From IMG/VR virus record IMGVR_UViG_3300020403_000005, positions 1 through 64,000 of that record: 64,000 bases of DNA. One strand, written 5' to 3'. Positions within the stretch are counted from its first letter, which is position 1. Every line of letters begins with the position of its first letter. The stretch is from a virus. Below the pieces are notes generated by a model. It was not told where the DNA came from and made no database searches. It saw only the letters and a program-made list of their open reading frames with translations. Below, piece after piece: positions 1 through 42,767 of this stretch. The position numbers and the translations under genes were made by a program.

Positions 1-1
1 T

Positions 2-307
2 TGTGGAATAACCCTTAACTGGGTCTTTTGTTTTAACGTCAACAAGATGTAGCCCTCTTTCTTCAGACGAAACTAATTCTACTTGCTGCTTCCACTTTGG
101 TCTTGGGGTTTTCTTTTCTTCCAAGCCGTTAACCTCATTTAAATCTACTGCGCCTTTGAGCCAACCATTTTTCTCGATGCGTTCGAGCGTCATGCTGAAG
201 GCGTGACTTTTCTTTAGTCTTTGCTTTTTATTTCTAGCGTACCCCTCCTTAAAGCCCTTTATTTGTATGGACTTTTTCTTTGGGATGTATTTAGCTATTA
301 CGTTCAC
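2..307 (-). CDS. Hypothetical protein, partial (runs off window start)
   Basis: Read manually: GTG at 307, open frame (MNVIAKYIPKKKSIQIKGFKEG...) to the window edge; TTGACA-N17-TAGTGT promoter at 345-317. Confidence 0.6.
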   Translation of the reverse strand, partial: MNVIAKYIPKKKSIQIKGFKEGYARNKKQRLKKSHAFSMTLERIEKNGWLKGAVDLNEVNGLEEKKTPRPKWKQQVELVSSEERGLHLVDVKTKDPVKGYST

Positions 308-360
308 TGTCTTTCTACACTATCAGATTTTTGGTTTTATGTCAACTACTTTTTTTAAAT

Positions 361-906
361 TTATCGCAATTCTTTTCTGAGGAGTCTCCAACGGTCACTA
401 TCAATAGCTTTTTTGCCGCTATCTATTTGTTTAATCATGTCTAAAACTTCATCTATACTATCATAAATATAATGATGCGGAAGCATACCCATCATCCAAA
501 GCGGTGTTTGAGATTTGCCCCCCTCCATAGAGATAAAGATAGGCTTTTTTGCTCTAACCGCTGTAACAAGTTCTTCTGCGCTGCCCCAGCTTGCTACTTC
601 TGGAAGTATATGGGCAATAATAAAATCAGAGCGATCAACAAGATTTAAATCATAATTACGAACCGTACTCATTCTCTCCGCTACATCATTGTAGTAACCC
701 GCTTCCATCGCTTCGTGCATTTTCACACGAGCTTCTTCATCTTCGTCAACATCCTTGACGAACGGTTTCTTGTATGGATTGAATACTGTAATATCCAAAG
801 AAGCTAATTCACACTCAGCGTAATCTCTCCAGTTTCGGCCATCAGCATATTGCATATGTCCGACCAGATAGGTTCTTGTTTTTTCTAAAATGTTTTTATT
901 TTGCAT
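361..906 (-). CDS. Nucleoside 2-deoxyribosyltransferase-like protein
   Basis: YLVGHM N-terminal motif, DLNLVDRSDFIIA and GSAEEL (catalytic Glu) match the NDT/RCL-like fold. Confidence 0.65.
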   Translation of the reverse strand: MQNKNILEKTRTYLVGHMQYADGRNWRDYAECELASLDITVFNPYKKPFVKDVDEDEEARVKMHEAMEAGYYNDVAERMSTVRNYDLNLVDRSDFIIAHILPEVASWGSAEELVTAVRAKKPIFISMEGGKSQTPLWMMGMLPHHYIYDSIDEVLDMIKQIDSGKKAIDSDRWRLLRKELR

Positions 907-912
907 ATAAGC

Positions 913-941
913 ACCATATCACGCTTTTGATTTGATGTCAA
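913..941 (-). promoter_or_regulatory. Sigma70-type promoter giving a probably leaderless transcript
   Basis: TTGACA-N17-TATGGT followed by ATG after 6 nt. Confidence 0.6.
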
Positions 942-1144
942 CTCCAATTTCGAGCTTCTCTTATAGACTTATTTCTTTGATTGTATTTAGCTTTTCTTTG
1001 TTTGAAATATTTTTTTCTTGTCGGTTTTTCGTAATATCTACGGCTTCTAACTTCCCCCAAGACATTCTCCTTGTCCAGCTTTTTCTTTAACTTTCTTAAA
1101 GCTTTATCAACAGATTCTCCTTTTTTTATTTTAACTTCAATCAT
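938..1144 (-). CDS. rpsU: Ribosomal protein bS21
   Basis: EVKIKKGESVDKALRKLKKK...EVRSRRYYEKP is the bS21 signature; 68 aa, basic. Confidence 0.92.
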   Translation of the reverse strand: MIEVKIKKGESVDKALRKLKKKLDKENVLGEVRSRRYYEKPTRKKYFKQRKAKYNQRNKSIREARNWS

Positions 1145-1183
1145 GAATATTTATTTATTATGTTCTGACTTCGCGGCTAAATA

Positions 1184-2272
1184 TTAGATTGTAACGCCCA
1201 ATTTTTCTAAATTATCTTTAAATAAGTCAAACGGTATGTCTTTATAATGTAAAACTAATGGTAGTTTTATATCTCCTGATCTGTTTTCAACAACTCTGTT
1301 GTCAAAGTATCCGTCAGCCATCAAAGCGGCGGCGGCAGAAATTGAATAAGCTGTTGATTTTTGCATAGCTGAAAATTTCAAATCATAACCAATTATAACT
1401 TCTCTATTCCATGTTACATTACCGCCTTTAACAGTCGCCTTGATTAACACTACGTCATGATCTTTGGGGCATCCGTTTAAGAAAATAGACTCTAAAGTTT
1501 TATCATCTAAATCACAATTTCTAATTAAAAACTTAACTATATCTCTATGGCCTTCATATCTTATTGTTTTGTAGCTGCAATTTTTAACACCACGATCTTT
1601 CATCGTTCTTATTGTGTGACTTGCACCGCCACTGGTGTAAAAGGCTTCTAATTTTTCGTTCTTTAGAAGTTCAAAACTGACATCTTCTTTACCATCCATT
1701 CCTGCGACTTTGTGTATTTCTCCCGCTTTTAATACCTCGCAGTCATCTCTATACTCATTTATAAGCCCGTCTACAGACCAAGTGACCGCATAGTTTAATG
1801 GGGGATTAGTCGGCATCGCTGGTAGACCGCCAACCATAATTTTAACTTCGTGAACCTTGTGGTGTAGCTCCGAATAACCCCACTCGGCCAAAATATTAAC
1901 TAAACCAGGAGCAAGACCCAAATCAGTAAACACTGGTTTACTAGCTTTTTCTTCTGCATATTTATTTATATCAGCAGAAACATCTACTCTTCCGCCTAAA
2001 TCGCAATATCTTATTCCCTTATTTATACAATAAAAGGCAACATCTTTTAATTGGTGGTACGGTAAACTGCTTACAACTACATCTGGTAAATGATAGTTAA
2101 TAGCCTTTTTAATGTCTTCTAGCTCTGGAGTATGAATAAATTTGTCAGCGTCTACATTTTCCGCCGCACCCTCCCAAGAGTCTACACCTATAACTTCATA
2201 ACCTAACCTGTCCATAGCGTAAACTATGCACTGGCCCATTCTTCCCACGCCGCAAACTAAAGCTTTTTTCAT
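1184..2272 (-). CDS. Saccharopine dehydrogenase / lysine 6-dehydrogenase family oxidoreductase
   Basis: Rossmann GVGRMG, YCDLGG, GLAPGLVNILA, YAVTWSVDGLINEY, YKTIRYEGH. Confidence 0.85.
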   Translation of the reverse strand: MKKALVCGVGRMGQCIVYAMDRLGYEVIGVDSWEGAAENVDADKFIHTPELEDIKKAINYHLPDVVVSSLPYHQLKDVAFYCINKGIRYCDLGGRVDVSADINKYAEEKASKPVFTDLGLAPGLVNILAEWGYSELHHKVHEVKIMVGGLPAMPTNPPLNYAVTWSVDGLINEYRDDCEVLKAGEIHKVAGMDGKEDVSFELLKNEKLEAFYTSGGASHTIRTMKDRGVKNCSYKTIRYEGHRDIVKFLIRNCDLDDKTLESIFLNGCPKDHDVVLIKATVKGGNVTWNREVIIGYDLKFSAMQKSTAYSISAAAALMADGYFDNRVVENRSGDIKLPLVLHYKDIPFDLFKDNLEKLGVTI

Positions 2273-2273
2273 A

Positions 2274-2990
2274 TTATTCCTTCCAAGTTACTTTGATTAA
2301 ATTATCTCCGAAAAATTCCTTAGTATATCTAACGGCGTCCTCTGGATCAAAAGGTTTGCAAGTATAAATATCTACAGAAAAGAATTTGGGCGATCTGTTA
2401 TCCCAAGTGTATATGTGCATACCGCTCTCTTTCCAATGTACGAAAGCGCACCAACCGTATTTGGGTTCGTGATTTAAAACTGGGTTAGTCACCAGAGACA
2501 TATTTAAAACGCTAGATATATCAATAGCATATTTAGTCATATCTTCTGGAGTAAATTCATTATGTAAAGTGCCTTCAATTATACATCTTTGTCTACATAT
2601 TTCGGGTGCTAAATCCTCCCAGCCTTCTAGTTGTTCTATGGTTATCGATTTGTCGTCTATAACTAAATCACAAGCTGGTTTTATATATTTGCCCTTTGAG
2701 CCAGTTGATAAATCATGAAACTTACACCCCCAGCTTTCAAGTTGCTTCCAAGTAAATTCGTGGTAGCATCTTCCTTCCGCTTTAGATTTGTCAGAGCCAC
2801 CACGAGCAGTCCAGTAGATAATCTGCCAGCCTTGGTCGTATAGTCTATTTATTTTATCTATGTTATTGGTAAGTGGTTGCGCTAAGTCATACCTTCTTTT
2901 ATCTGGGTAGTAGCAGACAGTCTCATCAATATCTACCAGAGCGACTTTTACATCGTCTGCCGCAAACTGTTTGGAGTCATGAAATTCCAT
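2274..2990 (-). CDS. Fusion of HAD-like phosphatase (N-terminal) and S-adenosylmethionine decarboxylase-like domain (C-terminal)
   Basis: DIDETV, WTARG, KP..DLVIDDK (HAD motifs I-IV); WKESGMHIYTW and SVDIYTCK (AdoMetDC proenzyme E-S cleavage site and DIYTC motif). Confidence 0.75.
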   Translation of the reverse strand: MEFHDSKQFAADDVKVALVDIDETVCYYPDKRRYDLAQPLTNNIDKINRLYDQGWQIIYWTARGGSDKSKAEGRCYHEFTWKQLESWGCKFHDLSTGSKGKYIKPACDLVIDDKSITIEQLEGWEDLAPEICRQRCIIEGTLHNEFTPEDMTKYAIDISSVLNMSLVTNPVLNHEPKYGWCAFVHWKESGMHIYTWDNRSPKFFSVDIYTCKPFDPEDAVRYTKEFFGDNLIKVTWKE

Positions 2991-3710
2991 TTATTTTTTC
3001 TTTTTCTTCTCGTGTTCTGGCATCTTAGCTCTCACTTCATCTACCAATTTTAAATCTAATGCTTCGTCTGCTGAAATCCACCAATCTTTTCTTTCCCAAT
3101 TTTTCTTTATTTTTTGCTTGGTCAGTGTCGATCTTGCTGTAAAAATATCTAAAATTCTTTCTTCAATTCTTTTTACAAATTCAACCTCATCTTCTATCTC
3201 GTAAGTTTTCCCCCAAGCCCCAAAAGCCGCTCTGTGTATCATGACCCAAGCTTGATGGCCTACCCATCTGGTGTCTCCAGCTTGAAGCAGTATCCCCGCC
3301 ATTGAGGCGGCCATACCTAGAGTCCCAGTGGTTATATGATGGCCAGATGATCTTAGGTGTTGAATGTGGTCGAACAATTCAAATCCATCAATTATACTAC
3401 CGCCAGGAGAAGAGAATATAATTTCAATGTCGGATTTAGGATATAGTCTTGACCATTCCGTCAAAGTTCTCATGCAGCCAGCTACGCTTGATCTATTAAC
3501 TTCTCCATTGAATCTATATAAACAATTTCTTGAGTCTCCTGCCATTTCTCTGTCTCTAGCTCTCTTGATCTCACTCAACTCTATTTCGGCAACGTCCGCT
3601 TCGACTCTCGCTCTTCTCGCTTCTTCTAGAGTTTTCTGAGTTTCTGCTTCGAGCTTTTTGACCTCGGCAGCTATTTCCTTTTTCGATCTAATGTCTTTTT
3701 CTTCACTCAT
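2991..3710 (-). CDS. clpP: ClpP-family protease with N-terminal coiled coil
   Basis: SPGGS, AASMA (catalytic Ser), MIH (His), DWWISADEALDLKLVDEV. Confidence 0.85.
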   Translation of the reverse strand: MSEEKDIRSKKEIAAEVKKLEAETQKTLEEARRARVEADVAEIELSEIKRARDREMAGDSRNCLYRFNGEVNRSSVAGCMRTLTEWSRLYPKSDIEIIFSSPGGSIIDGFELFDHIQHLRSSGHHITTGTLGMAASMAGILLQAGDTRWVGHQAWVMIHRAAFGAWGKTYEIEDEVEFVKRIEERILDIFTARSTLTKQKIKKNWERKDWWISADEALDLKLVDEVRAKMPEHEKKKKK

Positions 3711-8731: not shown

Positions 8732-9052
8732 TTATTTATAAAGATATTCTGCGATGTAGCTTATATTAATAGAGCTAAAAATTTCGGAACCTAAATCGTC
8801 TATTATTTGATCTCTAGTAAATCCTTCGGCTTCGGCCCATCTCCATTTATTTACATTTATTTTGTAGGCTGTTACTCGTCGCTGACTATTTACCGTGGTC
8901 ATACCAATTAAAACTGCTTTTTCTGCACTTTTATTGATTAGGACATAGGAGTCCTCATCTACGGTTTTAGTCGCGCTCAGAACGAATCCAAGGTTTTGAG
9001 CGTCTTTCTTTAATCGCGTAATTTCTTTTTCAAGTTTTGAACTGCGTGGCAC
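8732..9052 (-). CDS. Hypothetical protein
   Basis: 106-aa ORF, GTG start 8 nt after the GTGTAA motif. Confidence 0.6.
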   Translation of the reverse strand: MPRSSKLEKEITRLKKDAQNLGFVLSATKTVDEDSYVLINKSAEKAVLIGMTTVNSQRRVTAYKINVNKWRWAEAEGFTRDQIIDDLGSEIFSSINISYIAEYLYK

Positions 9053-9074
9053 ATATAATATTACACTAAAAAAA

Positions 9075-9484
9075 TGGTGGAGGCGGCGGGAATCGAACCC
9101 GCGTCTTTAGAACCCTAAATTCCAAAGTTCTACAAGCTTAGTCGATCTAATACAATACGTGTCTGTGACCGACAACTTCACGTAAGGTTTGGTCTATCTT
9201 TTTTTAAACAACTGGAGACTCAACCAGACTCAACCAGTGTTTTTCTCGCTATCGTCGCCCTATCTCATAAGCGAGAATCCTGAGTAGGACGGAGCAGAAC
9301 TACGCTGCCATCGCGGCTTCTTGATAGCCAAACTGAGCGAGAATCGCGTCAGCTTCAGCTACCGAGGGAGCCATATCAACTGCATCTTTAGCATTTGACG
9401 TTGTAATAGATTTTTTAAGAGGCCAACTATCATCCTCTGCTTGCTGTTTGGCGTCAGACCCTAAATCGAATCCAGTACGCCCCC
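9075..9484 (-). ncRNA. ssrA: tmRNA (one-piece, 410 nt)
   Basis: 5' GGGGGCGTACTGGATTCGA; 3' GCGGGTTCGATTCCCGCCGCCTCCACCA; acceptor stem with G3:U70; internal tag frame ending in AAMAA-stop. Confidence 0.95.
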
Positions 9485-9490
9485 AAAATT

Positions 9491-9655
9491 TAACCCCTTG
9501 TTTCAAGGCGGGGCATCCTTGCTAAGTTTCATCTGACGCGCTTTTCAGTTTGGCACTTAGTCACCAACATAAGGCAAGCACGAGCCTTCTGAGTTTCGAT
9601 TCACGCACCTTTCAGCTTGGCACTCAGGAACCAGCGTGAGGCAGGTACGAGCCTC
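9491..9655 (-). ncRNA. Unrecognised 165-nt tandem-pseudoknot RNA, copy 1
   Basis: Two 67-nt units plus a 31-nt terminal pseudoknot; colinear, gap-free homolog at 33882-34046; compensatory changes in four helices. Confidence 0.85.
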
Positions 9656-9674
9656 TGTGTATTACACTCATAAA

Positions 9675-10385
9675 TTATTTTTCTAAACCTTGACAAAGCA
9701 TTTGCGCTGTTTTTCTGGCGTGGAACACTCTAGACATAACGGTTCCAAGCGGTATGTTCTGCTTCTTCGCTATTTCTTCGTAACTTAGTCCCTCGGCTAT
9801 ATATAATAAGCATTCTTTGTGCTTTTTACTAAGCGGTTTTAATCTTTTTTCTAAGCTGTTTTTTAATTCAACGTTTCCTTCTTGTTCAAGTAGACTGTCT
9901 AGGGGCGTGGGTTGACTGTTGAGCGAAGCCTCATATACATTACTCATTTGCTCTGGAGGTTTCCGATTCTGATCACTCTTTAAAGCGCGGTAAAAAATGA
10001 CGTGGCTACGAAAATTTTTCTGAACCGTAGTGTCACTTGACGGACGACGATCATTGCCTCCCGCGCTGAAGAATACACCCTCAAGAGAAATTTCTCCTTT
10101 TCTACTTTTCCATCTGCTATGATCGTACACGATGCCTCTTATAATTTGATAAAACCAAGTTTTAAAGTGGCAGTCGCCTCTAAAGGTGGGCAAAGACTTC
10201 CAAGATTTGATTAATGCTTTTTGGTAGTGGTCTTTGCCTTCGTCTTCCGAATCAGCAAACTTCATGCACACTGACCACATATATTTATGGTGTCTATCAA
10301 CAAGCTCGTTAAAAGCCTCGCAGTCTCTATCGTCTTGACACGCTAATTTGATTAATTGCGTGTCTGTTTGTTCGGGGTAATTCAC
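9675..10385 (-). CDS. ECF-type RNA polymerase sigma factor
   Basis: AFNELVDRH, LPTFRGDCHFKTWFYQI (region 2); EGLSYEEIAKKQNIPLGTVMSRVFHARK (region 4). Confidence 0.88.
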   Translation of the reverse strand: MNYPEQTDTQLIKLACQDDRDCEAFNELVDRHHKYMWSVCMKFADSEDEGKDHYQKALIKSWKSLPTFRGDCHFKTWFYQIIRGIVYDHSRWKSRKGEISLEGVFFSAGGNDRRPSSDTTVQKNFRSHVIFYRALKSDQNRKPPEQMSNVYEASLNSQPTPLDSLLEQEGNVELKNSLEKRLKPLSKKHKECLLYIAEGLSYEEIAKKQNIPLGTVMSRVFHARKTAQMLCQGLEK

Positions 10386-10393
10386 AGGTTGTT

Positions 10394-10549
10394 CTATTGC
10401 TCTATAACTAAAAAGTCTCCACCATTACTTTTTAATTCTTTAACGTAAGATTTAGCTTGCTTTTCTCCTTCTGGAGTATACTTAAAAGCTCCGTAAGTAT
10501 ATTTTTTATCTTTTGATACTACTAAATAAACCTTTTGACGTTTTTTCAT
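10394..10549 (-). CDS. Small hypothetical protein (51 aa, not in ORF track)
   Basis: MKKRQKVYLVVSKDKKYTYGAF...VIEQ; ATG overlaps the upstream TGA. Confidence 0.55.
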   Translation of the reverse strand: MKKRQKVYLVVSKDKKYTYGAFKYTPEGEKQAKSYVKELKSNGGDFLVIEQ

Positions 10550-10818
10550 TTTTTTCTTTTATTCGAAAAATTGCCAGTAAAAGCCTTGTCGGCGCACCAT
10601 TGATTTATTTCGTCCTCTAATTTAGCCATTTCAATTTTTTCAAACTTGGCTCTTTGAAGTAATGTTTTTATTTCTTGTTCTAAGTCTTCTTTTCTTTCAT
10701 CGTCTGGGCTTAGATTTTCATATTGATCTAAAGCGTCGCTAAGTCTACTTTCCCACCATTCGACGCTTTGTTCAATACGCTGGATTCTTTCGGTGAATTC
10801 TTGTTCTTTGGCCTTCAT
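10546..10818 (-). CDS. Hypothetical coiled-coil protein
   Basis: 90-aa charged helical ORF. Confidence 0.6.
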   Translation of the reverse strand: MKAKEQEFTERIQRIEQSVEWWESRLSDALDQYENLSPDDERKEDLEQEIKTLLQRAKFEKIEMAKLEDEINQWCADKAFTGNFSNKRKK

Positions 10819-10892
10819 TGTAAATATACCCTAACATATTTTTGGGTACAGATCAAGCTTATTTTTTGAATAAATAAGAAATAATGTGAAAT

Positions 10893-11102
10893 TTAAACTC
10901 TTTTTACGAGTTCAACTTTGGGGCGAGTTTTGAATAAAAAGCCCTCTTCATAGAGGTAGTTAACAATCATAGTTAGCTCTACTTCTGAAATATCGTCGTA
11001 CCTGTCAACGATTAATAAACGCTCTAAACCAACACTATAAGTGATGACTTTTACTTCAAATCCATTGACAGTTACTTCTACTGATTCGTAACTATCGTTC
11101 AC
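10893..11102 (-). CDS. Hypothetical protein, paralog of 15616-15825
   Basis: IVNYLYEEGFL motif shared with IVEYLYTEGFV; TGTAATAT motif upstream. Confidence 0.6.
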   Translation of the reverse strand: MNDSYESVEVTVNGFEVKVITYSVGLERLLIVDRYDDISEVELTMIVNYLYEEGFLFKTRPKVELVKRV

Positions 11103-11153
11103 ATACTATATTACAGTCTCAGTTGTTGTTTTAAAAAAAAATATCTATATTTA

Positions 11154-11197
11154 AAAAAATAAGCGCAACAGGGACACGGTTAGTGTATGTTGCGCTT
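11154..11197 (-). terminator. Intrinsic terminator after the serine protease gene
   Basis: AAGCGCAACA...TGTTGCGCTT hairpin followed by ATTTTTTT on the minus strand. Confidence 0.6.
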
Positions 11198-11254
11198 GGG
11201 GTTCTTTTGCCTCCACCCCTATGCACCCGTATAATTTATTCAGCACCTCCTTAT

Positions 11255-12196
11255 CTACTTGTTCTTAATAACGGGTAAAGGAATAATCTTGTATTTAGGA
11301 GTTACCTTTAACATAAACGGGAATTCTCTCTTGGCGGCTTTTGTCTCCTCGGACTCCGCGCTATGACCCTTTGTTGTGGCGTGTTCTATGGGCATTTTTT
11401 TGAGTTCTTCGTATGGGGGCATTTTGACCTTCGGGTCTAACGCCCACATAATTTTATGCTTCTCGCAGTAATCCTTCATTCTTCTAACAGGTACGATAAG
11501 ATTGAAACCTTCTCCTGCGCCACGCACTAACATTCCTACGTATTTCGCGTCACTCTTGAGATAAACTCCCCCTCCAGAAGAACCAGGAAACGCAGTACAA
11601 GTGGTTTGATCAAAAACGAATTTATTTAAACTTTTAATTAATCTTCCGTGCTGAGAATAAATTCCATCGGTCATAGAGTTAGAACCCATTTGCCCCAAAA
11701 GAGAGCCTACGTGTAAAAGATCAGTTCCCAACTGCGGAATTTTACCGTCAAGGTGAAAAGATACCGAGTCGGTTACAAAATTAAGCTTTCTCACTCTTAA
11801 TAACGCTAAATCATGCCCATCATCTGCGTCACTATACTTTAAAACCTCGGCATCCATTTCTAATCTACCCACGGTTCTGCCCCCTTCTCTAATTTCTTTG
11901 ACTACGATGGGGTCTTTAAACTCGACTAAAGTTTTACTTTTACCTTCGATAACGGCATTTCTAGTTGATCTAAGGTTATCAATAACATGAGCGGCAGTCC
12001 AGACGAAGTTTACTAAATTACCGTCGGCATCCTTTCTCGAAAAAATCACACCTGAACCCTCACCTTTGGAAAAATTTGATTCCGAGCGTATAGTAACAGA
12101 TACATCTTGTAGGTGGTCTGCTATTGGTTTTTCATTGGAGGAGGCTTGAAAATTAAAGGCTACGAGCGCAATTAATGATAATTTAATAATTTTCAT
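11255..12196 (-). CDS. Secreted trypsin-like serine protease
   Basis: N-terminal signal peptide; WTAAHV, DLALLRV and PGSSGGGV give the His/Asp/Ser triad. Confidence 0.85.
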   Translation of the reverse strand: MKIIKLSLIALVAFNFQASSNEKPIADHLQDVSVTIRSESNFSKGEGSGVIFSRKDADGNLVNFVWTAAHVIDNLRSTRNAVIEGKSKTLVEFKDPIVVKEIREGGRTVGRLEMDAEVLKYSDADDGHDLALLRVRKLNFVTDSVSFHLDGKIPQLGTDLLHVGSLLGQMGSNSMTDGIYSQHGRLIKSLNKFVFDQTTCTAFPGSSGGGVYLKSDAKYVGMLVRGAGEGFNLIVPVRRMKDYCEKHKIMWALDPKVKMPPYEELKKMPIEHATTKGHSAESEETKAAKREFPFMLKVTPKYKIIPLPVIKNK

Positions 12197-21726: not shown

Positions 21727-22149
21727 ATGAATATAAGAGATGTTTCTAATGAGTTGTTTCAGTGGTTTTCCGACAATGACTCGTTTTGTATCTCAAAAGA
21801 TTTCAATAAAGTAATTTTAATCACAGAGCATAGACAAAGAGACACCGCCGCCCTCAAGGCTGCTTTAAATAATCTAGAAAAAGTAAACTTAATACAAAAA
21901 CAAGAAATCGAAGGAGAAGAAATTTGGGTTTTAGAAAAACCATTCGAACAATACGAGCAAACAGTGGAGATACCGCCGCAGACCTGTATAGCCATAACTG
22001 AAATAATTAACTCTTTTTGCGATGAAATAGAAGACCAAACAGACCGAGTAAACTCATCCGAAATAACCCCAAAAGACATTAATAATTTAGTTATTTTATG
22101 TAATCATTTCAAATCTTTAACTCTGCCGAGTCAAAATAACGAAGCCTGA
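21727..22149 (+). CDS. Hypothetical protein
   Basis: 140-aa ORF, first gene of the plus-strand block. Confidence 0.6.
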   Translation: MNIRDVSNELFQWFSDNDSFCISKDFNKVILITEHRQRDTAALKAALNNLEKVNLIQKQEIEGEEIWVLEKPFEQYEQTVEIPPQTCIAITEIINSFCDEIEDQTDRVNSSEITPKDINNLVILCNHFKSLTLPSQNNEA

Positions 22150-22185
22150 GTTGACTTTTGTTCAAAAACAGTTTATTGTACAACA

Positions 22186-22553
22186 GATAATAAAAGGCTA
22201 TACCTTTTAAGCTCGCTGAGAAACAACAGTGGAGTTTTCCTTGAGGCAATCGAATGCAGTAGATGGGGTAGCTGGCCGCTACCTAGCCAACGGGTGATAG
22301 GCTGTCCGTGTCCGTGCACGGTCAAAAAACATTCAGTTAATTACTGAAGCATTACCCCAGCGTAAGCAATATGCTAGGTGAATCAATGTAAGTAGAGTTT
22401 TCTGTGGAACGGTTTCTCTCGCCTTTATTTAGGTAGTTGATTTCGGATTTAATCCGATTGCGGTGTGTGTGGAATGTCTCATCCATGTTAAAAACACAGA
22501 GCTACGAAGAAAAGTCACACAGCAGCATCCCCCCCTCTGGGGGGGTGTTGTGT
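22186..22553 (+). ncRNA. Putative ~370-nt structured non-coding RNA of unknown family
   Basis: TTGACT-N17-TATTGT promoter (22151-22179); no ORF; about 8 helices visible; ends in a long C7/G7 hairpin. Confidence 0.6.
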
Positions 22554-22630
22554 TCGTTCTAAAGAAAAAGTATACACAGCTTAAAATTCGTCTGGACTTT
22601 TCTTCAAAAATAACTTAATATAAATTAATC

Positions 22631-23239
22631 ATGATTATCGGACTTTCTGGAGTTGCTGGTGCTGGCAAGGACACTTTTTTTAAGATATTTAAAAAGTTAA
22701 TTGGTGATAAACGTAAGGTCGTAAGATTCGCTTTGGCTGACGCCCTCAAGAAAGAAGTCAGCACTTGGACCAAAAAGCACTACGGAATTTGTGCGTTTGA
22801 TTGTTCTAGAGAGCAAAAAGAAGTTATTCGTCCTTTTTTAGTGTTGCATGGAGTTCAAAAAAGAATGGCTTCCGAAGGAAGACATTGGATCGAGCTTCTC
22901 GATCCAGAATTAAAGGATTATGTTGATTCCGACGATATCGCCATCGTGACCGACATCAGATATGCAGACTTCGAAAAAGATGAGGCTTACTGGATTCAAC
23001 ATGAATTGAATGGTTTTATTGTTCATATTTCTATGTACATCCCGAAGAAGAACTCTAACGAGGGCGTGTTAGAGATGCATTTTGTGAAGCCCTATAATGA
23101 AGAAGAAGCTAGAAACGACCCGAAGTTAAAGGATGCGTCAGATATCAAGGTGGAGTGGCCTAAGATTGAAGATAATCCTGAGTTTGAGCAAAAGATAGAA
23201 AAACACGTACAAAATGTAATAGATTCTTTGGGTTTATAG
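22631..23239 (+). CDS. Deoxynucleoside monophosphate kinase
   Basis: IIGLSGVAGAGKDT, FALADALK, IVTDIRY..E. Confidence 0.85.
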   Translation: MIIGLSGVAGAGKDTFFKIFKKLIGDKRKVVRFALADALKKEVSTWTKKHYGICAFDCSREQKEVIRPFLVLHGVQKRMASEGRHWIELLDPELKDYVDSDDIAIVTDIRYADFEKDEAYWIQHELNGFIVHISMYIPKKNSNEGVLEMHFVKPYNEEEARNDPKLKDASDIKVEWPKIEDNPEFEQKIEKHVQNVIDSLGL

Positions 23240-32367: not shown

Positions 32368-33460
32368 AAGAAAAACGACAAAAGCAGAAGACGGATTATC
32401 ACCAGTTGACCAGATAAGCGCGTACCTAGAAACAAACAAAGCAGATCACTACAACTTCGAAGAAGAGCGATCCTACGTAGTCTCCAGCGGCTCCTTACTA
32501 TTAGATATAGAAATGGGCGGAGGAATCGGACCAGGAGTTATTAGAGCGTCCGGTATAACCGAAGGAGGAAAAACTTCTTGCGCTTTAGCATTTGCAAAAA
32601 ACTTCCAAAAAATGGACAACGCTATGGTAGTTTATATCAAATCGGAAGGAAGACTTTCTGCCGAAATGATTGAACGCGCTGGAGTATCCACTGATGAAAA
32701 TAAGTGGTTTATATACAAAAGCAATGTATACGAATCAGTTATTAATTTAATGAGAGAATTGGTAGCAAACAATCCATCTCAAAGAAAATATATGTTCATC
32801 ATAGATTCTATGGACTCCCTAGTTCCAAAGAACGATCTGGAAAAACCACCAGAAGAAGCCAATAAAGTCGCTGGCGGTGCTTTATTAAGCTCAGACTTTT
32901 TAAGAAAGATGGCACTAGGCATGACTACTCGCGGCCACATTTGCTATATGGTCTCCCAAGTCAGAAGCAAGGTGTCGATTAACCCATACGAAAAAACTGA
33001 CGCCAGAGTGACCAACGCCTCTGGAGGTAATGCCTTGCTGCATTACAGTGATTGGATTCTTGAGTTCCAAGAAAGACATTTAAAAGATATTATTTCGACC
33101 CAACCAAATGGTAAAGGAGACCTACTTGGACACTGGTGCAAAGTTGTCTTCAAAAAGACACCTAACGAAAAAACTGGCTCTCTAGTGCGCTACCCAATAA
33201 GATATGGCAGAGTTGGAGGCAAAAGTATCTGGGTAGAATATGAAGTCGTAGACTACCTCATTGCATTTGATATGGCTAAAAAAGCTGGAGCTTGGGTAAC
33301 TATTTCTGACGACTTAATGTCCGAGGTTGAAGAGAAAACCGGAGAAGAATTCAAGAAGCAGCACCAAGGTACAGATAATTTAAGAAAATACTTCGAAGAA
33401 AATCCAAAAATCGGAAAGTATATTTTTAATAAATTTAGAGAGACACTCAAAAAGTCATGA
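32360..33460 (+). CDS. RecA/UvsX-like recombinase
   Basis: SSGSLLLDI.MGGG, GITEGGKT (Walker A), IIDSMDSL, SQVR, SGGNALLHY. Confidence 0.85.
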   Translation: MPKRKTTKAEDGLSPVDQISAYLETNKADHYNFEEERSYVVSSGSLLLDIEMGGGIGPGVIRASGITEGGKTSCALAFAKNFQKMDNAMVVYIKSEGRLSAEMIERAGVSTDENKWFIYKSNVYESVINLMRELVANNPSQRKYMFIIDSMDSLVPKNDLEKPPEEANKVAGGALLSSDFLRKMALGMTTRGHICYMVSQVRSKVSINPYEKTDARVTNASGGNALLHYSDWILEFQERHLKDIISTQPNGKGDLLGHWCKVVFKKTPNEKTGSLVRYPIRYGRVGGKSIWVEYEVVDYLIAFDMAKKAGAWVTISDDLMSEVEEKTGEEFKKQHQGTDNLRKYFEENPKIGKYIFNKFRETLKKS

Positions 33461-33873
33461 GACTCTTAAATATCAACGGCAAGCTACAGAAAAAAAGCGT
33501 AACTAAATATCTTGTAGATTGGGATAAAAAGTCCCGCTCCAAGATACAATTTACAGTAAAACAATTCCTAAAGACCTACTGGAAAGGTCAAGTAGTTTAT
33601 GAAGAGTTTCCCGTGTACGGAACTAAAATGTCAGTTGACATATTAAATGCTACAAAAAAAATAGCAATAGAAGTACAAGGGCGACAGCATAATGAATTTA
33701 ATAAGTTTTTTCACTCTGACTCACGATTGAAATATTTAGAGTCAATTAAACGAGACTTAAAAAAAGCCGAATGGCTAGAAATGAATGACTTTAATCTAAT
33801 AGAAATAAACGAAGATGAAATAAATCAGCTTTCTAAAAAATTCTTTTTGACAAAGTTCGATATTGTGCTATAA
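33457..33873 (+). CDS. PD-(D/E)XK / DUF559-like endonuclease
   Basis: VDIL...IAIEVQGRQH...RDLKK..WLE. Confidence 0.68.
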   Translation: MRLLNINGKLQKKSVTKYLVDWDKKSRSKIQFTVKQFLKTYWKGQVVYEEFPVYGTKMSVDILNATKKIAIEVQGRQHNEFNKFFHSDSRLKYLESIKRDLKKAEWLEMNDFNLIEINEDEINQLSKKFFLTKFDIVL

Positions 33874-33874
33874 T
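33847..33874 (+). promoter_or_regulatory. Consensus sigma70 promoter of tandem-pseudoknot RNA copy 2
   Basis: TTGACA-N16-TATAAT with extended -10 TG; predicted +1 near 33881, the first base of the RNA. Confidence 0.75.
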
Positions 33875-33881
33875 CAACTTT

Positions 33882-34046
33882 AAGGTTCGCGTCTACCTTG
33901 CGCTGGTGACTGAGTGCCATGCTGAAAGCCGTGATACTTGAAACTCAGAAGGCTCGCGCTTGCCTTACATTGGTGACTAAGTGCCATATTGAAAAGTACG
34001 AACCTAGAAACTTAGCAAGGTTGCCCCGCCTTGAACCAAGGGGTTT
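33882..34046 (+). ncRNA. Unrecognised 165-nt tandem-pseudoknot RNA, copy 2
   Basis: Gap-free homolog of 9491-9655; 2 x 67-nt units plus CAAGGT-TGCCCC-GCCTTG-AACCAA-GGGGT pseudoknot. Confidence 0.85.
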
Positions 34047-34065
34047 ACAAAAACTAAAACAGGTC

Positions 34066-34094
34066 TTGACGCAAGACCAAAAACAAGGTATATT
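34066..34094 (+). promoter_or_regulatory. Sigma70-type promoter of dnaB
   Basis: TTGACG-N17-TATATT, 13 nt before ATG 34108. Confidence 0.65.
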
Positions 34095-34107
34095 AAGAAA
34101 AACGAAA

Positions 34108-35595
34108 ATGCAAATCTATTCTTTAAAAATTGAAAAACACGTACTAAGCGGATTAATTAAATATCCTGATATATTCACCGAAATTGAAAAATTCATAGGA
34201 GAAAAAGACTTCTTTAATGAGGTCCATAGAACGATTTTTTGTGTTATTAGAAGCACATTAATCTCTGGAGAAAAACTAGATAAAGTCCTACTAGCCGAAA
34301 AAATAAGAAATTTAGGAGTAACCTTTAAGGACGAGATTGATATTTATAGCTATATTGATAATTTAGCTTTTTCTCAAATCAAACACAAAGCGATCATTGA
34401 AGCTGCTAGAGAGCTTTTAAAATTAAGAATCAGAAGAGAGCTTCAAGACACATGCCAGAACGTAATGAAATACATCGAAGGGTCTGGTAATGAATCCGTA
34501 GATAATATTATATCTAATTGTGATTCAATGTACAATCAGCAGATTAACTCATACTCTCTAGATGAAGAACCAGTGTCAATCTACGAAGACTTGGAAGACA
34601 TGATCGAAGAATGCGGAAATGAACCCAATGAAGACGTTGGCTTTAAAACTTCTTTTCCAGAGTTCAATAGATTATATGGAGGACTAAGAGCAGGTAATCT
34701 TTACGCGGTTGTAGCCAGACCAGGTCAAGGCAAGACAACTTGGATAAACAACATGGTTATGAAGTGCTCTGAAATAAACGATGTCCCTGTGTTGATGTTG
34801 GACACGGAGATGATAACCAGAGATATTAAATTTAGAACCGCTTCAGCAATCACTGATGTACCGATGTGGTATCTAGAAACAGGCAACTGGCGCAAGAATC
34901 AAGACTTGACGCAAAAAGTAAGAAATAAAATATCCACCATAAACAGAGAAGCGAAGTGTTACCACGCCTTCATCGGCAATAAAAACGTAGATCAAGTTTG
35001 CTCTCTAGTTAAAAGATGGTACTTATCCGTAGTGGGAAGAGGCAATCCATGCATAATATCTTACGACTACATAAAACTAACCGGAGAAAAAGTAGCCCAA
35101 AACTGGGCAGAGCATCAAGCCATTGGTGACAAAATTGACAAGCTCAAAAAACTTTCAGAAGAAATAAATGCTCCGATTGTGACCGCGATGCAGATGAATC
35201 GATCTGGAGAAAACCACAATAGAAGAGGCGGAGACATTACGGATGATAGCTCTGCAATCTCACTTTCAGATAGACTTCAATGGTTCGCCAGCTTCGTTGC
35301 CATTTTCAGAAGAAAGACTCTGGACGAAATAGCGGCGGATGGCGAAAATTTTGGTACTCACAAACTAGTACCATTAAAGACTAGATTTCAAGGTAAAGAC
35401 GCAGCAGGGCATCACGATTTAGTCAGAAGACCAATGGATGATGGATCATTTAGATATATGAATAACTATTTAAACTTTTCCGTGAGAAACTTTAACGTGG
35501 AGGAACAAGGCTCCCTGCATGATGTTATTGAGTCTCAGATGGAAAGATTTAACCCAGAAGAAGAGAACCCAAACGACGGAGAAGAAATACTATAA
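34108..35595 (+). CDS. dnaB: Replicative DNA helicase DnaB
   Basis: EKHVLSGLI..DFFNEVHRTIF N-domain, ARPGQGKT, DTEM, YDYIKL, QMNR; start reassigned from 33919 to 34108. Confidence 0.9.
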   Translation: MQIYSLKIEKHVLSGLIKYPDIFTEIEKFIGEKDFFNEVHRTIFCVIRSTLISGEKLDKVLLAEKIRNLGVTFKDEIDIYSYIDNLAFSQIKHKAIIEAARELLKLRIRRELQDTCQNVMKYIEGSGNESVDNIISNCDSMYNQQINSYSLDEEPVSIYEDLEDMIEECGNEPNEDVGFKTSFPEFNRLYGGLRAGNLYAVVARPGQGKTTWINNMVMKCSEINDVPVLMLDTEMITRDIKFRTASAITDVPMWYLETGNWRKNQDLTQKVRNKISTINREAKCYHAFIGNKNVDQVCSLVKRWYLSVVGRGNPCIISYDYIKLTGEKVAQNWAEHQAIGDKIDKLKKLSEEINAPIVTAMQMNRSGENHNRRGGDITDDSSAISLSDRLQWFASFVAIFRRKTLDEIAADGENFGTHKLVPLKTRFQGKDAAGHHDLVRRPMDDGSFRYMNNYLNFSVRNFNVEEQGSLHDVIESQMERFNPEEENPNDGEEIL

Positions 35596-42200: not shown

Positions 42201-42767
42201 ATGAGAGTTCAATTCTACAAACCAAATGCAAAAGTGACAGGTTCGGCATGTTCGTTCTGGACCTCCGAAGACGGATCAATTATGTCTTCGATGATTAAGC
42301 AAGATTCTTGGGATGACTCGCGCAAGCGAGGCTCGTTCAGCAAGAACAAAGATAACCCAGCCAAGAAAGTGATTATCAAATTAAATGTCACTGAAGCTGG
42401 ATCGATTGTTGACGCGATTGAAAATAACCGTAAATGGAGCGGCTATCACCAATCAAAAAATCAAGTCACACGAATTAATTTTGGGCCATACGAAAGAAAC
42501 GGAGAGCAAATTGGGTACTCCTACTCGGTAAACAAAGAAGACAAGGAAGACTCAACCAATAAAACCAGCTTTATTATTGGCTTCACTTTTGGAGAGGGCG
42601 TAGTTCTAAGAGAGGCGTTGATAGACGCGATTAAAAACTCTCTCAAAGACGCAGCGCAGCCTCAGTCAAGCTATTCTAAACCTCAACAACAAAATCAAGC
42701 CCCACAGCAAGCTCCACAGATAGCGCAAATTGCTACGGACAGCTTTGATGACGATGACGAGTGGTAA
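42201..42767 (+). CDS. Putative ssDNA-binding protein (Whirly/PC4-like)
   Basis: Repeated beta-rich unit (IKLNVTEA / IGFTFGEG), Q-rich linker, acidic aromatic tail FDDDDEW; replication-module context. Confidence 0.55.
   Translation: MRVQFYKPNAKVTGSACSFWTSEDGSIMSSMIKQDSWDDSRKRGSFSKNKDNPAKKVIIKLNVTEAGSIVDAIENNRKWSGYHQSKNQVTRINFGPYERNGEQIGYSYSVNKEDKEDSTNKTSFIIGFTFGEGVVLREALIDAIKNSLKDAAQPQSSYSKPQQQNQAPQQAPQIAQIATDSFDDDDEW

What the first reader, a model, noticed from the sequence alone, without database searches (positions are those of the whole stretch)
9491..9655. Novel tandem double-pseudoknot RNA (copy 1) directly 5' of the tmRNA
Seen (minus strand): unit 1 GAGGC-TCGTACCT-GCCTC-AC-GCTGGT-TC-CTGAGT-GCCAAGC-TGAA-AGGTGCG-TGAATC-GAA-ACTCAG; unit 2 AAGGC-TCGTGCTT-GCCTT-AT-GTTGGT-GA-CTAAGT-GCCAAAC-TGAA-AAGCGCG-TCAGAT-GAA-ACTTAG; then CAAGG-ATGCCCCG-CCTTG-AAACAA-GGGGT. 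Each 67-nt unit has two hairpins whose loops both pair with downstream segments (order a b a' c d c' b' d'). Across the four units in the window, all four helices show compensatory changes: GAGGC/GCCTC, AAGGT/ACCTT, AAGGC/GCCTT; CGTACCT/AGGTGCG, CGTGCTT/AAGCGCG; GC/GC, GT/AC, AT/AT; CTGAGT/ACTCAG, CTAAGT/ACTTAG. TCG, TGGT, GTGCCA, TGAAA and GAAACT are invariant. It starts 6 nt after a GTGTAA box and ends 6 nt before tmRNA G1, so it is probably co-transcribed and released by tmRNA 5' processing. I do not recognise the family. Hypotheses (inference): a new ribozyme, a decoy mimicking type III toxin-antitoxin pseudoknot repeats, or a nuclease-resistant protein-binding RNA.
Basis: partly seen in the sequence, partly recalled or inferred. 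Interest (0 to 1): 0.92.

Follow-up and report, generated by a model that had tools for sequence, protein, structure and literature searches.

The report
Modular double-pseudoknot RNA of marine phages
Next to the tmRNA gene and the helicase gene of an uncultured marine phage sit two copies of a tightly folded small RNA module that no catalogue lists; related phages carry many more copies, some on both sides of a TnpB-like gene, and what it does is still unknown.

Summary
Window 9493-9655 (-) is two 67-nt units (U) and a 29-nt H-type pseudoknot (T). An 8-nt A/T-rich spacer follows, then tmRNA G1 (9484). A second U-U-T lies at 33882-34044 (+).

On 29 distinct units from the window and related phage contigs, 98.3% of cells pair in the four-helix interleaved fold, against 28-43% for slid controls. 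All four helices hold compensatory changes. No Rfam family matches.

The element is not specific to tmRNA. It is a modular family, U(U)T, found only in a small clade of uncultured marine phages. I counted about 10 intergenic sites, always on the strand of the flanking genes, with array size differing between close relatives. Sites include a TnpB/Cas12f-like gene flanked by arrays on both sides. By synteny, that gene should lie just off the left end of this contig.

Each of the 29 distinct units carries a different 6-nt linker. The linker is near saturation even between phages whose flanks are 97-99% identical.

Best reading (0.35): stable, protein-bound small RNAs released from phage transcripts, probably partnered with the TnpB-like protein. 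Rivals are cis-acting transcript punctuation, a ribozyme, a DNA-level element and a decoy.

Earlier agents of this scan describe what looks like the same family on other DNA. I could not verify that it is the same.

The parts
9589..9655 (-). U unit 1 of copy 1 (A-type, 67 nt): helices a (cols 1-5/14-18), b (7-13/46-52), c (21-26/35-41), d (29-34/62-67)
   Evidence: model R1 88.3 bits
9598..9603 (-). 6-nt hypervariable linker (columns 53-58) of unit 1
9522..9588 (-). U unit 2 of copy 1 (B-type); linker at 9531-9536
   Evidence: R1 86.5 bits
9493..9521 (-). T: terminal H-type pseudoknot (5-bp stem 1, 5-bp stem 2, A-rich third loop)
   Evidence: (R2 51.0 bits)
9485..9492 (-). 8-nt A/T-rich spacer. 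The same kind of spacer separates T from the next U in relatives' arrays and, in L014, from two start codons.
9075..9484 (-). tmRNA gene, directly downstream
9662..9668 (-). It is a possible -10-like or phage-specific promoter element. The simple sigma-70 scan did not call it.
9675..10385 (-). sigma-factor gene (ECF-like) ending 19 nt upstream of unit 1
   Evidence: phrog_1740, E 9.1e-20
33847..33874 (+). 12-of-12 sigma-70 consensus promoter with TG extension. It lies inside the end of the 138-aa ORF, and its last base is 7 nt before copy 2.
   Evidence: conserved in L002, L004, L006
33882..33948 (+). U unit 1 of copy 2 (A-type); linker 33934-33939
   Evidence: 79.0 bits
33949..34015 (+). U unit 2 of copy 2 (B-type); linker 34001-34006
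   Evidence: 79.2 bits
34016..34044 (+). T pseudoknot of copy 2
   Evidence: 49.8 bits
34066..34094 (+). second promoter-like site (10 of 12) between copy 2 and dnaB (ATG 34108)

Best explanation
The finding is one instance of a modular phage RNA gene. A module is one A-type unit, sometimes a B-type unit, and a capping pseudoknot T (96 or 163 nt), followed by an A/T-rich spacer.

Modules are transcribed with their neighbours or from their own promoter. I infer that they are released by cuts in the spacers, the same kind of leader that precedes tmRNA G1. I infer that they persist as compact small RNAs made of stacked pseudoknots.

Each unit shows a conserved surface (30 of 67 positions invariant, including the strands of helices c and d). 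Each also carries one free 6-nt segment that differs in every unit. I read the units as the RNA half of a phage RNA-protein system that acts in trans. The most likely protein is the TnpB/Cas12f-like protein that relatives encode between two arrays.

Shown: the fold, the modularity, the placement, the promoter, the variability and the neighbourhood of the TnpB-like gene in relatives.

Inferred: processing, stability, protein binding, and any role of the 6-nt segment.
For: - Fold and discreteness. Model R1 finds 48 units at 70.8-88.9 bits in 21 sources; the next match is 12.8 bits.
- Strong sequence constraint beside free positions: 30 invariant columns, while the linker columns have 1.7-2.0 bits of entropy.
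- Stand-alone expression signal: a 12-of-12 consensus promoter ends 7 nt before copy 2, and dnaB has its own promoter-like site behind the array. The other copy sits in front of a stable RNA gene.
- Array size differs between phages whose flanks are 97-98% identical: UUT-UT, UT-UT and UT-UUT-UUT at the dnaB site.
- Linker: 29 different hexamers in 29 distinct units, mean pairwise distance 4.35 against 4.5 for random. In 8 pairs of orthologous units with flanks 94-99% identical where they could be measured, 34 of 48 linker positions differ.
- TnpB-like link: the 496/488-aa ORF between arrays hits PF07282 in 4 of 4 family members, at 38-40 bits for the two scanned singly against a cut-off of 26.3. 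It has arrays on both sides in L008/L016 and L014, and upstream in L024.
- Synteny: the window's first 3 kb is collinear with L016 and L024 up to the point where they continue into array plus TnpB-like gene.
- Precedent: guide RNAs of 85-105 nt encoded in tandem directly behind dCas12f (PMC12259090, Results part 1). A pseudoknot is common to TnpB and Cas12 guide RNAs (PMC10097598, passages).
Against: - The window contig itself holds no TnpB-like gene. CheckV puts the contig at 53% complete, so this is weak evidence.
- Six of about 10 sites are not next to the TnpB-like gene.
- There is no variable stretch of guide length (12-16 nt). Only 6 nt vary, and what follows T at internal junctions is a conserved spacer.
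- There is no extra synonymous-site conservation at the 3' end of the TnpB-like ORF. Third-position identity at identical residues is 0.41 in the last window and 0.25-0.68 elsewhere.
- Free positions of T also change between near-identical phages: columns 6 and 9 differ in 5 of 8 pairs. The other 56 unit columns differ by 4-7% against 1-3% in the flanks. The fast change may therefore be a property of the whole array, from recombination with old alleles or local hypermutation, and not selection on the hexamer.
- No RNA data show a discrete species.
Confidence: 0.35

Rival explanations
1. Cis-acting transcript punctuation. The modules mark where polycistronic phage RNA, including the tmRNA precursor, is cut by host RNase P or RNase E in the A/U-rich spacer. 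They then cap the new ends against exonucleases and 5'-end-dependent decay, so each gene becomes its own stable unit.
For: - In all 32 array instances in 22 sources (about 10 distinct sites), every flanking ORF my simple caller called lies on the array's strand.
- Arrays start -3 to 26 nt after the upstream stop at 9 sites. T ends 8, 8, 15 and 16 nt before the next ATG at 4 sites.
- The same kind of spacer precedes tmRNA G1, the next unit and two start codons.
- One lone unit sits just before a terminator-like hairpin (L001 4592-4658).
- The module is dispensable at a given junction. In the window the stop and start codons overlap at 42761-42767, where L011 has U-T inserted.
Against: - Thirty invariant positions, including helix strands that could covary, are more than a passive roadblock should need.
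- The dnaB array has its own consensus promoter, and dnaB a second one.
- Near-saturated free positions beside 97-99% identical flanks are not expected of a simple structural element.
- The nested fold energy is no better than shuffles.
Confidence: 0.28
2. A new class of self-cleaving ribozyme. Each 67-nt unit cuts at or near its own boundary and so dices operon transcripts, as clustered hammerheads between phage genes are thought to do.
For: - Small size, a double-pseudoknot core and many invariant unpaired or junction nucleotides.
- Tandem and intercistronic placement.
- Precedent of ribozyme clusters in phages (PMC3088659, listing and abstract only).
Against: - No match to any ribozyme family in Rfam at E<=10.
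- The order of helices (a b a' c d c' b' d') fits none of the classes I recalled: HDV, twister, pistol, hatchet (recall, not a test).
- Nothing points to a cleavage site.
Confidence: 0.12
3. Mainly a DNA-level element: a repeat that marks cassette boundaries and drives recombination or mobility. Options are PeSL-like, or a non-autonomous relative of IS200/IS605 ends used with the TnpB-like gene. On this view the RNA fold is secondary.
For: - Presence or absence at an orthologous junction.
- Variable array size.
- Arrays flank accessory genes: TnpB-like, thyX, a Tat-signal protein, ornithine cyclodeaminase, phosphomannomutase.
- The contig breaks where relatives have an array.
- The 138-aa ORF before copy 2 resembles phage clusters in which 12-21% of members carry DUF559, an endonuclease-like family. 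This is a lead only.
Against: - Strict co-orientation with genes, and compensatory changes in four helices including two long-range ones, argue for selection on a single strand, most simply RNA.
- Units are not recent copies. Different-site pairs are 78% identical and same-site pairs 84%, and no two units share a linker.
- No Y1 transposase was found in the one relative's record that could be searched (4 of 5 handles were not held).
Confidence: 0.1
4. Decoy or sponge RNA: an abundant early transcript that soaks up a host RNA-binding defence or regulator. One example would be a type III toxin, as the pseudo-ToxI repeats of phage PhiTE do.
For: - Tandem pseudoknot repeats with copy number varying between close relatives.
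- A consensus early-type promoter.
- Precedent PMC3475682 (listing and abstract only).
Against: - No look-alike in one genome each of 185,579 bacterial and archaeal species. The strict pattern gave 0 loci. The loose pattern gave 39 loci, all at 21.8 bits or less against 70-89 for members.
- No ToxN-family gene in the contig (its control rang nowhere, so this is weak).
- Most copies are single modules between genes, not amplified arrays.
Confidence: 0.07

Closest known systems
Guide RNAs of TnpB and dCas12f. Sources: omegaRNA of ISDra2 (PMC10097598, passages read); tandem 85-105-nt gRNAs behind dCas12f in rpoE-dcas12f loci (PMC12259090, abstract and Results part 1).
   Same: - Structured RNA on the gene's strand directly behind a TnpB/Cas12f-like gene in relatives.
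- A pseudoknot at the 3' end of the module.
- A U-T module is 96 nt.
- Modules occur in tandem.
- A sigma-factor gene lies next to one array.
   Different: - Only 6 nt vary, not a 14-16-nt 3' guide.
- Arrays also stand upstream of the gene and at six unrelated sites.
- No overlap with the ORF's 3' end is detectable.
- The sigma gene is not in an operon with the TnpB-like gene.
Type III toxin-antitoxin antitoxin RNAs (ToxI, CptI, TenpI) and phage pseudo-ToxI (PMC3401426, PMC3475682: listing and abstracts only).
   Same: Tandem direct repeats that fold as pseudoknots. Repeat number varies in phages.
   Different: - Unit of 67 nt with two interleaved pseudoknots.
- No toxin gene downstream.
- No bacterial homolog found.
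- Two unit types plus a separate cap element.
   Same: Many co-oriented copies at gene junctions. They mark points where relatives gain or lose genes.
   Different: The fold is a double pseudoknot, not a hairpin or a hammerhead. Sequence is far more conserved. A hypervariable 6-nt block is present.
Upstream pseudoknot domain in front of the tRNA-like end of tobamovirus RNA (recalled).
   Same: A row of stackable pseudoknots directly 5' of a tRNA-like structure (here tmRNA).
   Different: That is a eukaryotic plus-strand RNA virus and a 3' UTR. Here the same modules also occur far from any tRNA-like gene.

Membership tests
Any Rfam 15 family | Covariance-model score at or above the family's gathering score | tested here: not met
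   Whole window at gathering: only tmRNA and tRNA. Both copies at E<=10: only chance-level rows of 18.1 bits or less on the arrays' flanks. Relatives' loci L008, L014, L016: only a manA-like hit outside the arrays.
Type III TA antitoxin RNA | Tandem direct repeats that each form a pseudoknot | tested here: met
   The unit length of 67 nt is longer than the roughly 34-45 nt I recall for known antitoxins.
Type III TA antitoxin RNA | Endoribonuclease toxin gene directly downstream on the same strand | tested here: not met
   Downstream are tmRNA, dnaB, thyX, a Tat-signal protein and others. PF13958 gave no match in the contig (the control rang nowhere).
Type III TA antitoxin RNA (decoy version) | A bacterial original that the phage copy mimics | tested here: not met
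   Strict pattern: 0 loci in genome contigs. Loose pattern: 39 loci, best 21.8 bits with R1. Pattern scans miss diverged originals.
TnpB omegaRNA / reRNA | Encoded on the gene's strand at or just after the 3' end of tnpB | tested here: met
   Met in relatives. Arrays start -3 nt (L008/L016) and +4 nt (L014) from the stop. The ORF hits PF07282. It cannot be tested in the window, because the contig ends where relatives have this locus.
TnpB omegaRNA / reRNA | Scaffold followed by a variable guide of about 12-16 nt or more taken from the flank | tested here: not met
   The only variable block is 6 nt inside the unit. After T, at internal junctions and before tmRNA, comes a conserved 8-9-nt spacer and then conserved sequence.
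TnpB omegaRNA / reRNA | Scaffold overlaps the ORF's 3' end (extra nucleotide conservation there) | tested here: not met
   Third-position identity at identical residues is 0.41 in the last 40 codons and 0.25-0.68 elsewhere.
dCas12f-sigmaE RNA-guided transcription system | rpoE and dcas12f in one operon, with gRNAs directly behind dcas12f | tested here: not met
   The sigma gene is followed by U-T and tmRNA, not by the TnpB-like gene, both in the window and in L001. The TnpB-like gene lies in another stretch of the same 46-kb contig (L031).
Known self-cleaving ribozyme classes | Match to the class model; site-specific self-cleavage | tested here: not met
   No model match. Cleavage itself cannot be tested with these tools.
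Mature tmRNA | Lies inside the tmRNA model boundaries | tested here: not met
   Both tools place tmRNA at 9075-9484. The element lies 5' of G1.
Intercistronic processing or stabiliser elements (T7 RNase III-site type) | Co-oriented copies at junctions of genes of one operon | tested here: met
   The long double-stranded hairpin that defines RNase III sites is absent; the fold is a pseudoknot.

The most novel reading that the evidence does not exclude
The units are the RNA half of an undescribed phage RNA-protein recognition system built on a TnpB/Cas12f-like protein. A rigid double-pseudoknot scaffold presents a single 6-nt segment that differs in every unit and is rewritten between near-identical phages. 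That segment, not a long 3' guide, would set the specificity. The phage would carry a set of such RNAs spread through its operons and next to its tmRNA.
Probability: 0.25. Interest if true: 0.9.

Novelty: new variant of a known kind. Interest (0 to 1): 0.72.

Why it matters
If the modules are protein-bound small RNAs tied to a TnpB-like protein, they would show a way of using RNA with this protein family that differs from the long 3' guides known so far. It would be found in abundant ocean phages. This contig's DNA was found in seawater and marine metagenomes of 12 studies.

If they are transcript punctuation, they would be a pseudoknot-based counterpart of the T7 RNase III sites and a new way of maturing a phage tmRNA.

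Either way, this is a discrete, well-folded RNA family with a clear covariance model. It can be taken straight to the bench for RIP-seq, cleavage assays and probing.

Tried and rejected
Searches for more relatives
- INPHARED phages, distant blastn with window 9000-12000: no match.
They gave the same 4 UViGs; the other loci were chance matches of 15.2 bits or less.
- One metagenome scan gave 13 loci.
- Two genome scans gave nothing real.
- The TnpB-like protein found only itself in IMG/VR. It found 3 clusters in the protein collection.

RNA evidence
- Runs X17-X20 are contigs only. tmRNA is covered in three RNA libraries; X17 has one 296-nt contig at 9141-9435 with no other letters.
- No RNA-library contig covers 9493-9655.
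- X20, a viral metagenome that may be DNA, holds relatives' units.
- This says nothing for or against transcription of the array.

Ideas dropped
- Riboswitch. There is a stable G-C-rich stem 2, no Rfam hit, and a copy in front of a non-coding gene.
- CsrA sponge. The GGA-like loop letters of copy 1's T are not kept in other T copies.
- Intrinsic terminator reading of T. The scan calls a 5-bp hairpin at 9496-9508, but that alternative pairing is broken in the L005/L025 variants while stem 1 is kept.
- CRISPR-like reading, with T as repeat. The 'spacers' would be the conserved units.
- Hexamer as partner of tmRNA. One 6-nt complementarity was seen by eye, at about the chance level I estimated.
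- Gene conversion among the sampled units as the source of linker change. No two units share a linker.

Other notes
- A realignment of T with model R2 did not change the register, so stem 2 of T has no tool-counted covariation.
- Four literature searches and one aimed at sigma/Cas12f found no description of this RNA.
- The 10,006 candidate RNAs of PMC10690425 are listed in supplements that I could not open. They may include it.

Rows left out
- From alignment A1 I left out L014:4991-5058 (68 nt, one inserted base).
- My filter dropped L014:3416-3482, a true unit at 80.6 bits whose helix b is a perfect 7-bp variant.
- L012 and L003 are chance matches and were also left out.
- The ORF caller used ATG starts only, a minimum of 70 aa and a greedy longest-first choice. 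It shows a 79-aa antisense ORF across the array in L005, L018, L022 and L025, which I take as spurious.

Full report
WHAT IS THERE

On the minus strand the window reads, 5' to 3':
- a sigma-factor gene, 9675-10385 (phrog_1740);
- two 67-nt units (9589-9655 and 9522-9588);
- a 29-nt pseudoknot, T (9493-9521);
- an 8-nt A/T-rich spacer;
- the tmRNA gene, 9075-9484.

A second, ungapped copy of the same U-U-T lies on the plus strand at 33882-34044. It sits between a conserved 138-aa ORF and dnaB (ATG 34108). The window is the first 64 kb of an 84,362-bp IMG/VR virus record that CheckV rates 53% complete. My motif search found only these four units in the whole record.

IS THE FOLD REAL?

Pattern scans brought in relatives. 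They came from 4 IMG/VR contigs and 13 metagenome loci (Tara-type ENA assemblies and a salt-marsh JGI sample).

Twenty-nine distinct units align without gaps.
- 98.3% of 696 cells are standard pairs, against 28-43% when the 3' partners are slid by 1-3 columns.
- Eight of 24 pairs change on both sides (a: 2, b: 3, c: 2, d: 1), against 0-3 in the slid versions.
- The covariation score and the number of doubly changed cells exceed all 500 shuffles.
- The count of pairs with changes on both sides was reached by 30 of 500 shuffles.

Six of the eight compensatory pairs follow one split between two unit types, so the number of independent events is small. The two types are A-type and B-type; 7 of the 29 units are B-type. 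Independent events do exist. One is the first unit of the dnaB arrays, which changes the closing pair of helix a. Another is an L014 unit, left out of A1, whose helix b is a different perfect 7-bp helix (row printed).

RNAalifold, given only the alignment, returned helices b and c exactly. Nested energy folding of either array is no better than shuffles, as expected if the fold depends on pseudoknots.

T is always present right after a unit. All 36 complete T matches start at the base after a U match. Its two stems are 93% paired, but they show no tool-counted compensatory change. One stem-2 position varies C-G, U-G, U-A only when rows offset by an indel are read by eye.

IS IT KNOWN?

No Rfam 15 family matches, at gathering scores or at E<=10. 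A covariance model of the unit (R1) separates members at 70.8-88.9 bits from everything else:
- 12.8 bits or less in the same loci;
- 15.2 bits or less in other viral loci;
- 21.8 bits or less in 39 bacterial loci that matched a loose pattern.

The family is thus discrete. In the collections I could scan, it is confined to a small clade of uncultured marine phages. The phage itself has no near relative among deposited phages. Its DnaE-type polymerase is under 31% identical to anything in the deposited phage collection searched. The stretch 9000-9760 was found in marine and seawater metagenomes of 12 studies.

Five literature searches found no description. A 2023 catalogue of about 10,000 candidate viral RNAs may list it in supplements that I could not open (PMC10690425).

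THE WIDER ANATOMY

The element is modular. The module is an A-type unit, optionally a B-type unit, and T (96 or 163 nt). It is followed by an 8-9-nt A/T-rich spacer that leads into the next module, into tmRNA, or in L014 straight into two start codons.

At the dnaB site, phages whose flanks are 97-98% identical carry different arrays: UUT-UT, UT-UT or UT-UUT-UUT. The window has UUT.

There are 32 array instances in 22 sources, which I sort into about 10 distinct sites. In every instance, each flanking ORF my caller found is on the array's strand. Arrays begin -3 to 26 nt after the upstream stop at 9 sites.

A module can be absent at an orthologous junction. In the window the two genes overlap at 42761-42767, where L011 has U-T plus short flanks.

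The copy before tmRNA is kept in all four relatives' loci that hold a tmRNA, there as U-T.

Copy 2 is preceded by a 12-of-12 sigma-70 consensus promoter with a TG extension. The promoter ends 7 nt before the first unit and is kept in relatives. dnaB has its own 10-of-12 site behind the array. The ORF list shows a 558-aa 'dnaB' that runs across copy 2. The family match starts at the ATG at 34108, so that extension is false.

THE TNPB-LIKE NEIGHBOUR

When I scanned the genes that flank arrays in relatives, the 496/488-aa ORF with arrays on both sides hit the Cas12f1-like TNB domain, PF07282. The L008 and L014 proteins score 38-40 bits against a cut-off of 26.3. All 4 family members match. There are weak matches to solved Cas12f/TnpB chains.

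This ORF has arrays on both sides in two different neighbourhoods (L008/L016 and L014), and upstream in L024. The window contig holds no such gene. However, its first 3 kb is collinear at 65-88% identity with L016 and L024, up to the point where those continue into a manA-like RNA, an array and the TnpB-like gene. The gene may therefore lie just beyond the contig end. This is inference.

Against a classical omegaRNA:
- There is no extra conservation at the ORF's 3' end.
- No guide-length variable stretch exists.
- Arrays also lie upstream of the gene and at six unrelated sites.

Against the dCas12f-sigmaE type: the sigma gene beside copy 1 is not in an operon with the TnpB-like gene.

THE 6-NT LINKER

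After I had found the TnpB-like neighbour, the scan's own notes showed that other agents had described, on other marine phage genomes, a 60-70-nt double-pseudoknot RNA around a TnpB-like gene, with a fast-changing 6-nt loop. I could not check that it is the same family, but I tested the claim on my data.

- Columns 53-58 have 1.7-2.0 bits of entropy; no other column exceeds 1.5.
- All 29 distinct units have different hexamers, with a mean pairwise distance of 4.35 against 4.5 for random.
- I compared eight pairs of orthologous units from phages whose 300-nt flanks are 94-99% identical. For the L008-L021 pairs, only 64 nt of upstream flank could be aligned.
- In these pairs, 34 of 48 linker positions differ. 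One to 3 of 5 other free columns differ, and 2-4 of the 56 remaining columns.
- The two free loop positions of T also change in 5 of 8 such pairs.

So unconstrained positions throughout the modules are near saturation beside almost identical flanks. This could mean selection for new linkers, a local hypermutation process, or repeated short-patch recombination with old, diverged module alleles from a pool larger than my sample. I cannot tell which. Exchange among the sampled units is excluded, since no linker is shared.

HOW IT MOST LIKELY WORKS

Four features fit a trans-acting, protein-bound small RNA better than a passive transcript element:
- the heavy sequence constraint (30 of 67 columns invariant, including helix strands that could covary);
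- the stand-alone promoter;
- the position beside a stable RNA gene;
- the copy-number changes and the unit-specific hexamers.

The only candidate partner that the data point to is the TnpB-like protein. I therefore rank this reading first, at 0.35.

The placement data fit cis-acting punctuation equally well: cuts in the A/U-rich spacers, and pseudoknot caps on the new ends. That reading comes a close second, at 0.28. A new self-cleaving ribozyme (0.12), a mainly DNA-level cassette or mobility element (0.10) and a decoy RNA (0.07) remain open. None of the steps beyond anatomy is shown.

VERDICT

Its function is open.

Noticed in passing
L016:3905-4096 (-): A manA RNA motif match (RF01745, 51.7 bits, just under the gathering score of 55.2, E 1.3e-10). 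It lies directly upstream of the U-U-T array and the TnpB-like gene of a relative. manA RNAs are known from marine metagenomes and cyanophages (PMC2864571, passages).
   Followed up: partly
window 1-3000 versus L016 and L024: The window's left end is collinear with relatives up to the spot where they continue into manA-like RNA, array and TnpB-like gene. The contig may have broken at the repeat.
   Followed up: partly
window 33457-33873 (+): The 138-aa ORF whose last codons hold the consensus promoter of copy 2. It has no Pfam hit. By language-model features it sits with phage clusters in which 12-21% of members carry DUF559, an endonuclease-like family. This is a lead only.
   Followed up: no
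By my reading of the printed flanks, six occurrences lie in A/T-rich intergenic stretches shortly before gene starts or RNA genes. It may be a phage-specific promoter or start element.
   Followed up: partly
window 42761-42767 versus L011:2574-2690: An empty and a filled site. Two genes overlap by their stop and start codons in the window. The relative has about 116 nt there, including one U-T module.
   Followed up: yes
window 33919-35595 (+): The longest ORF for dnaB runs across copy 2. The DnaB family match begins at the ATG at 34108, so gene callers may hide the RNA inside a false N-terminal extension.
   Followed up: yes
L008:1785-2315, L014:2661-3311, L008:6250-7083, L001:3858-4565: Genes next to arrays in relatives are accessory-type: a Tat-signal protein, ThyX, an ornithine cyclodeaminase-family protein and a phosphomannomutase.
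   Followed up: partly
window 9075-9484 (-): The tmRNA of this phage appears in contigs of three RNA libraries, one with a 296-nt contig without any difference. The relatives' tmRNAs encode the same 18-residue tag.
   Followed up: partly
window 21800-22900: The ORF-free stretch that another note calls a second orphan RNA has no Rfam match better than E 0.24.
   Followed up: partly
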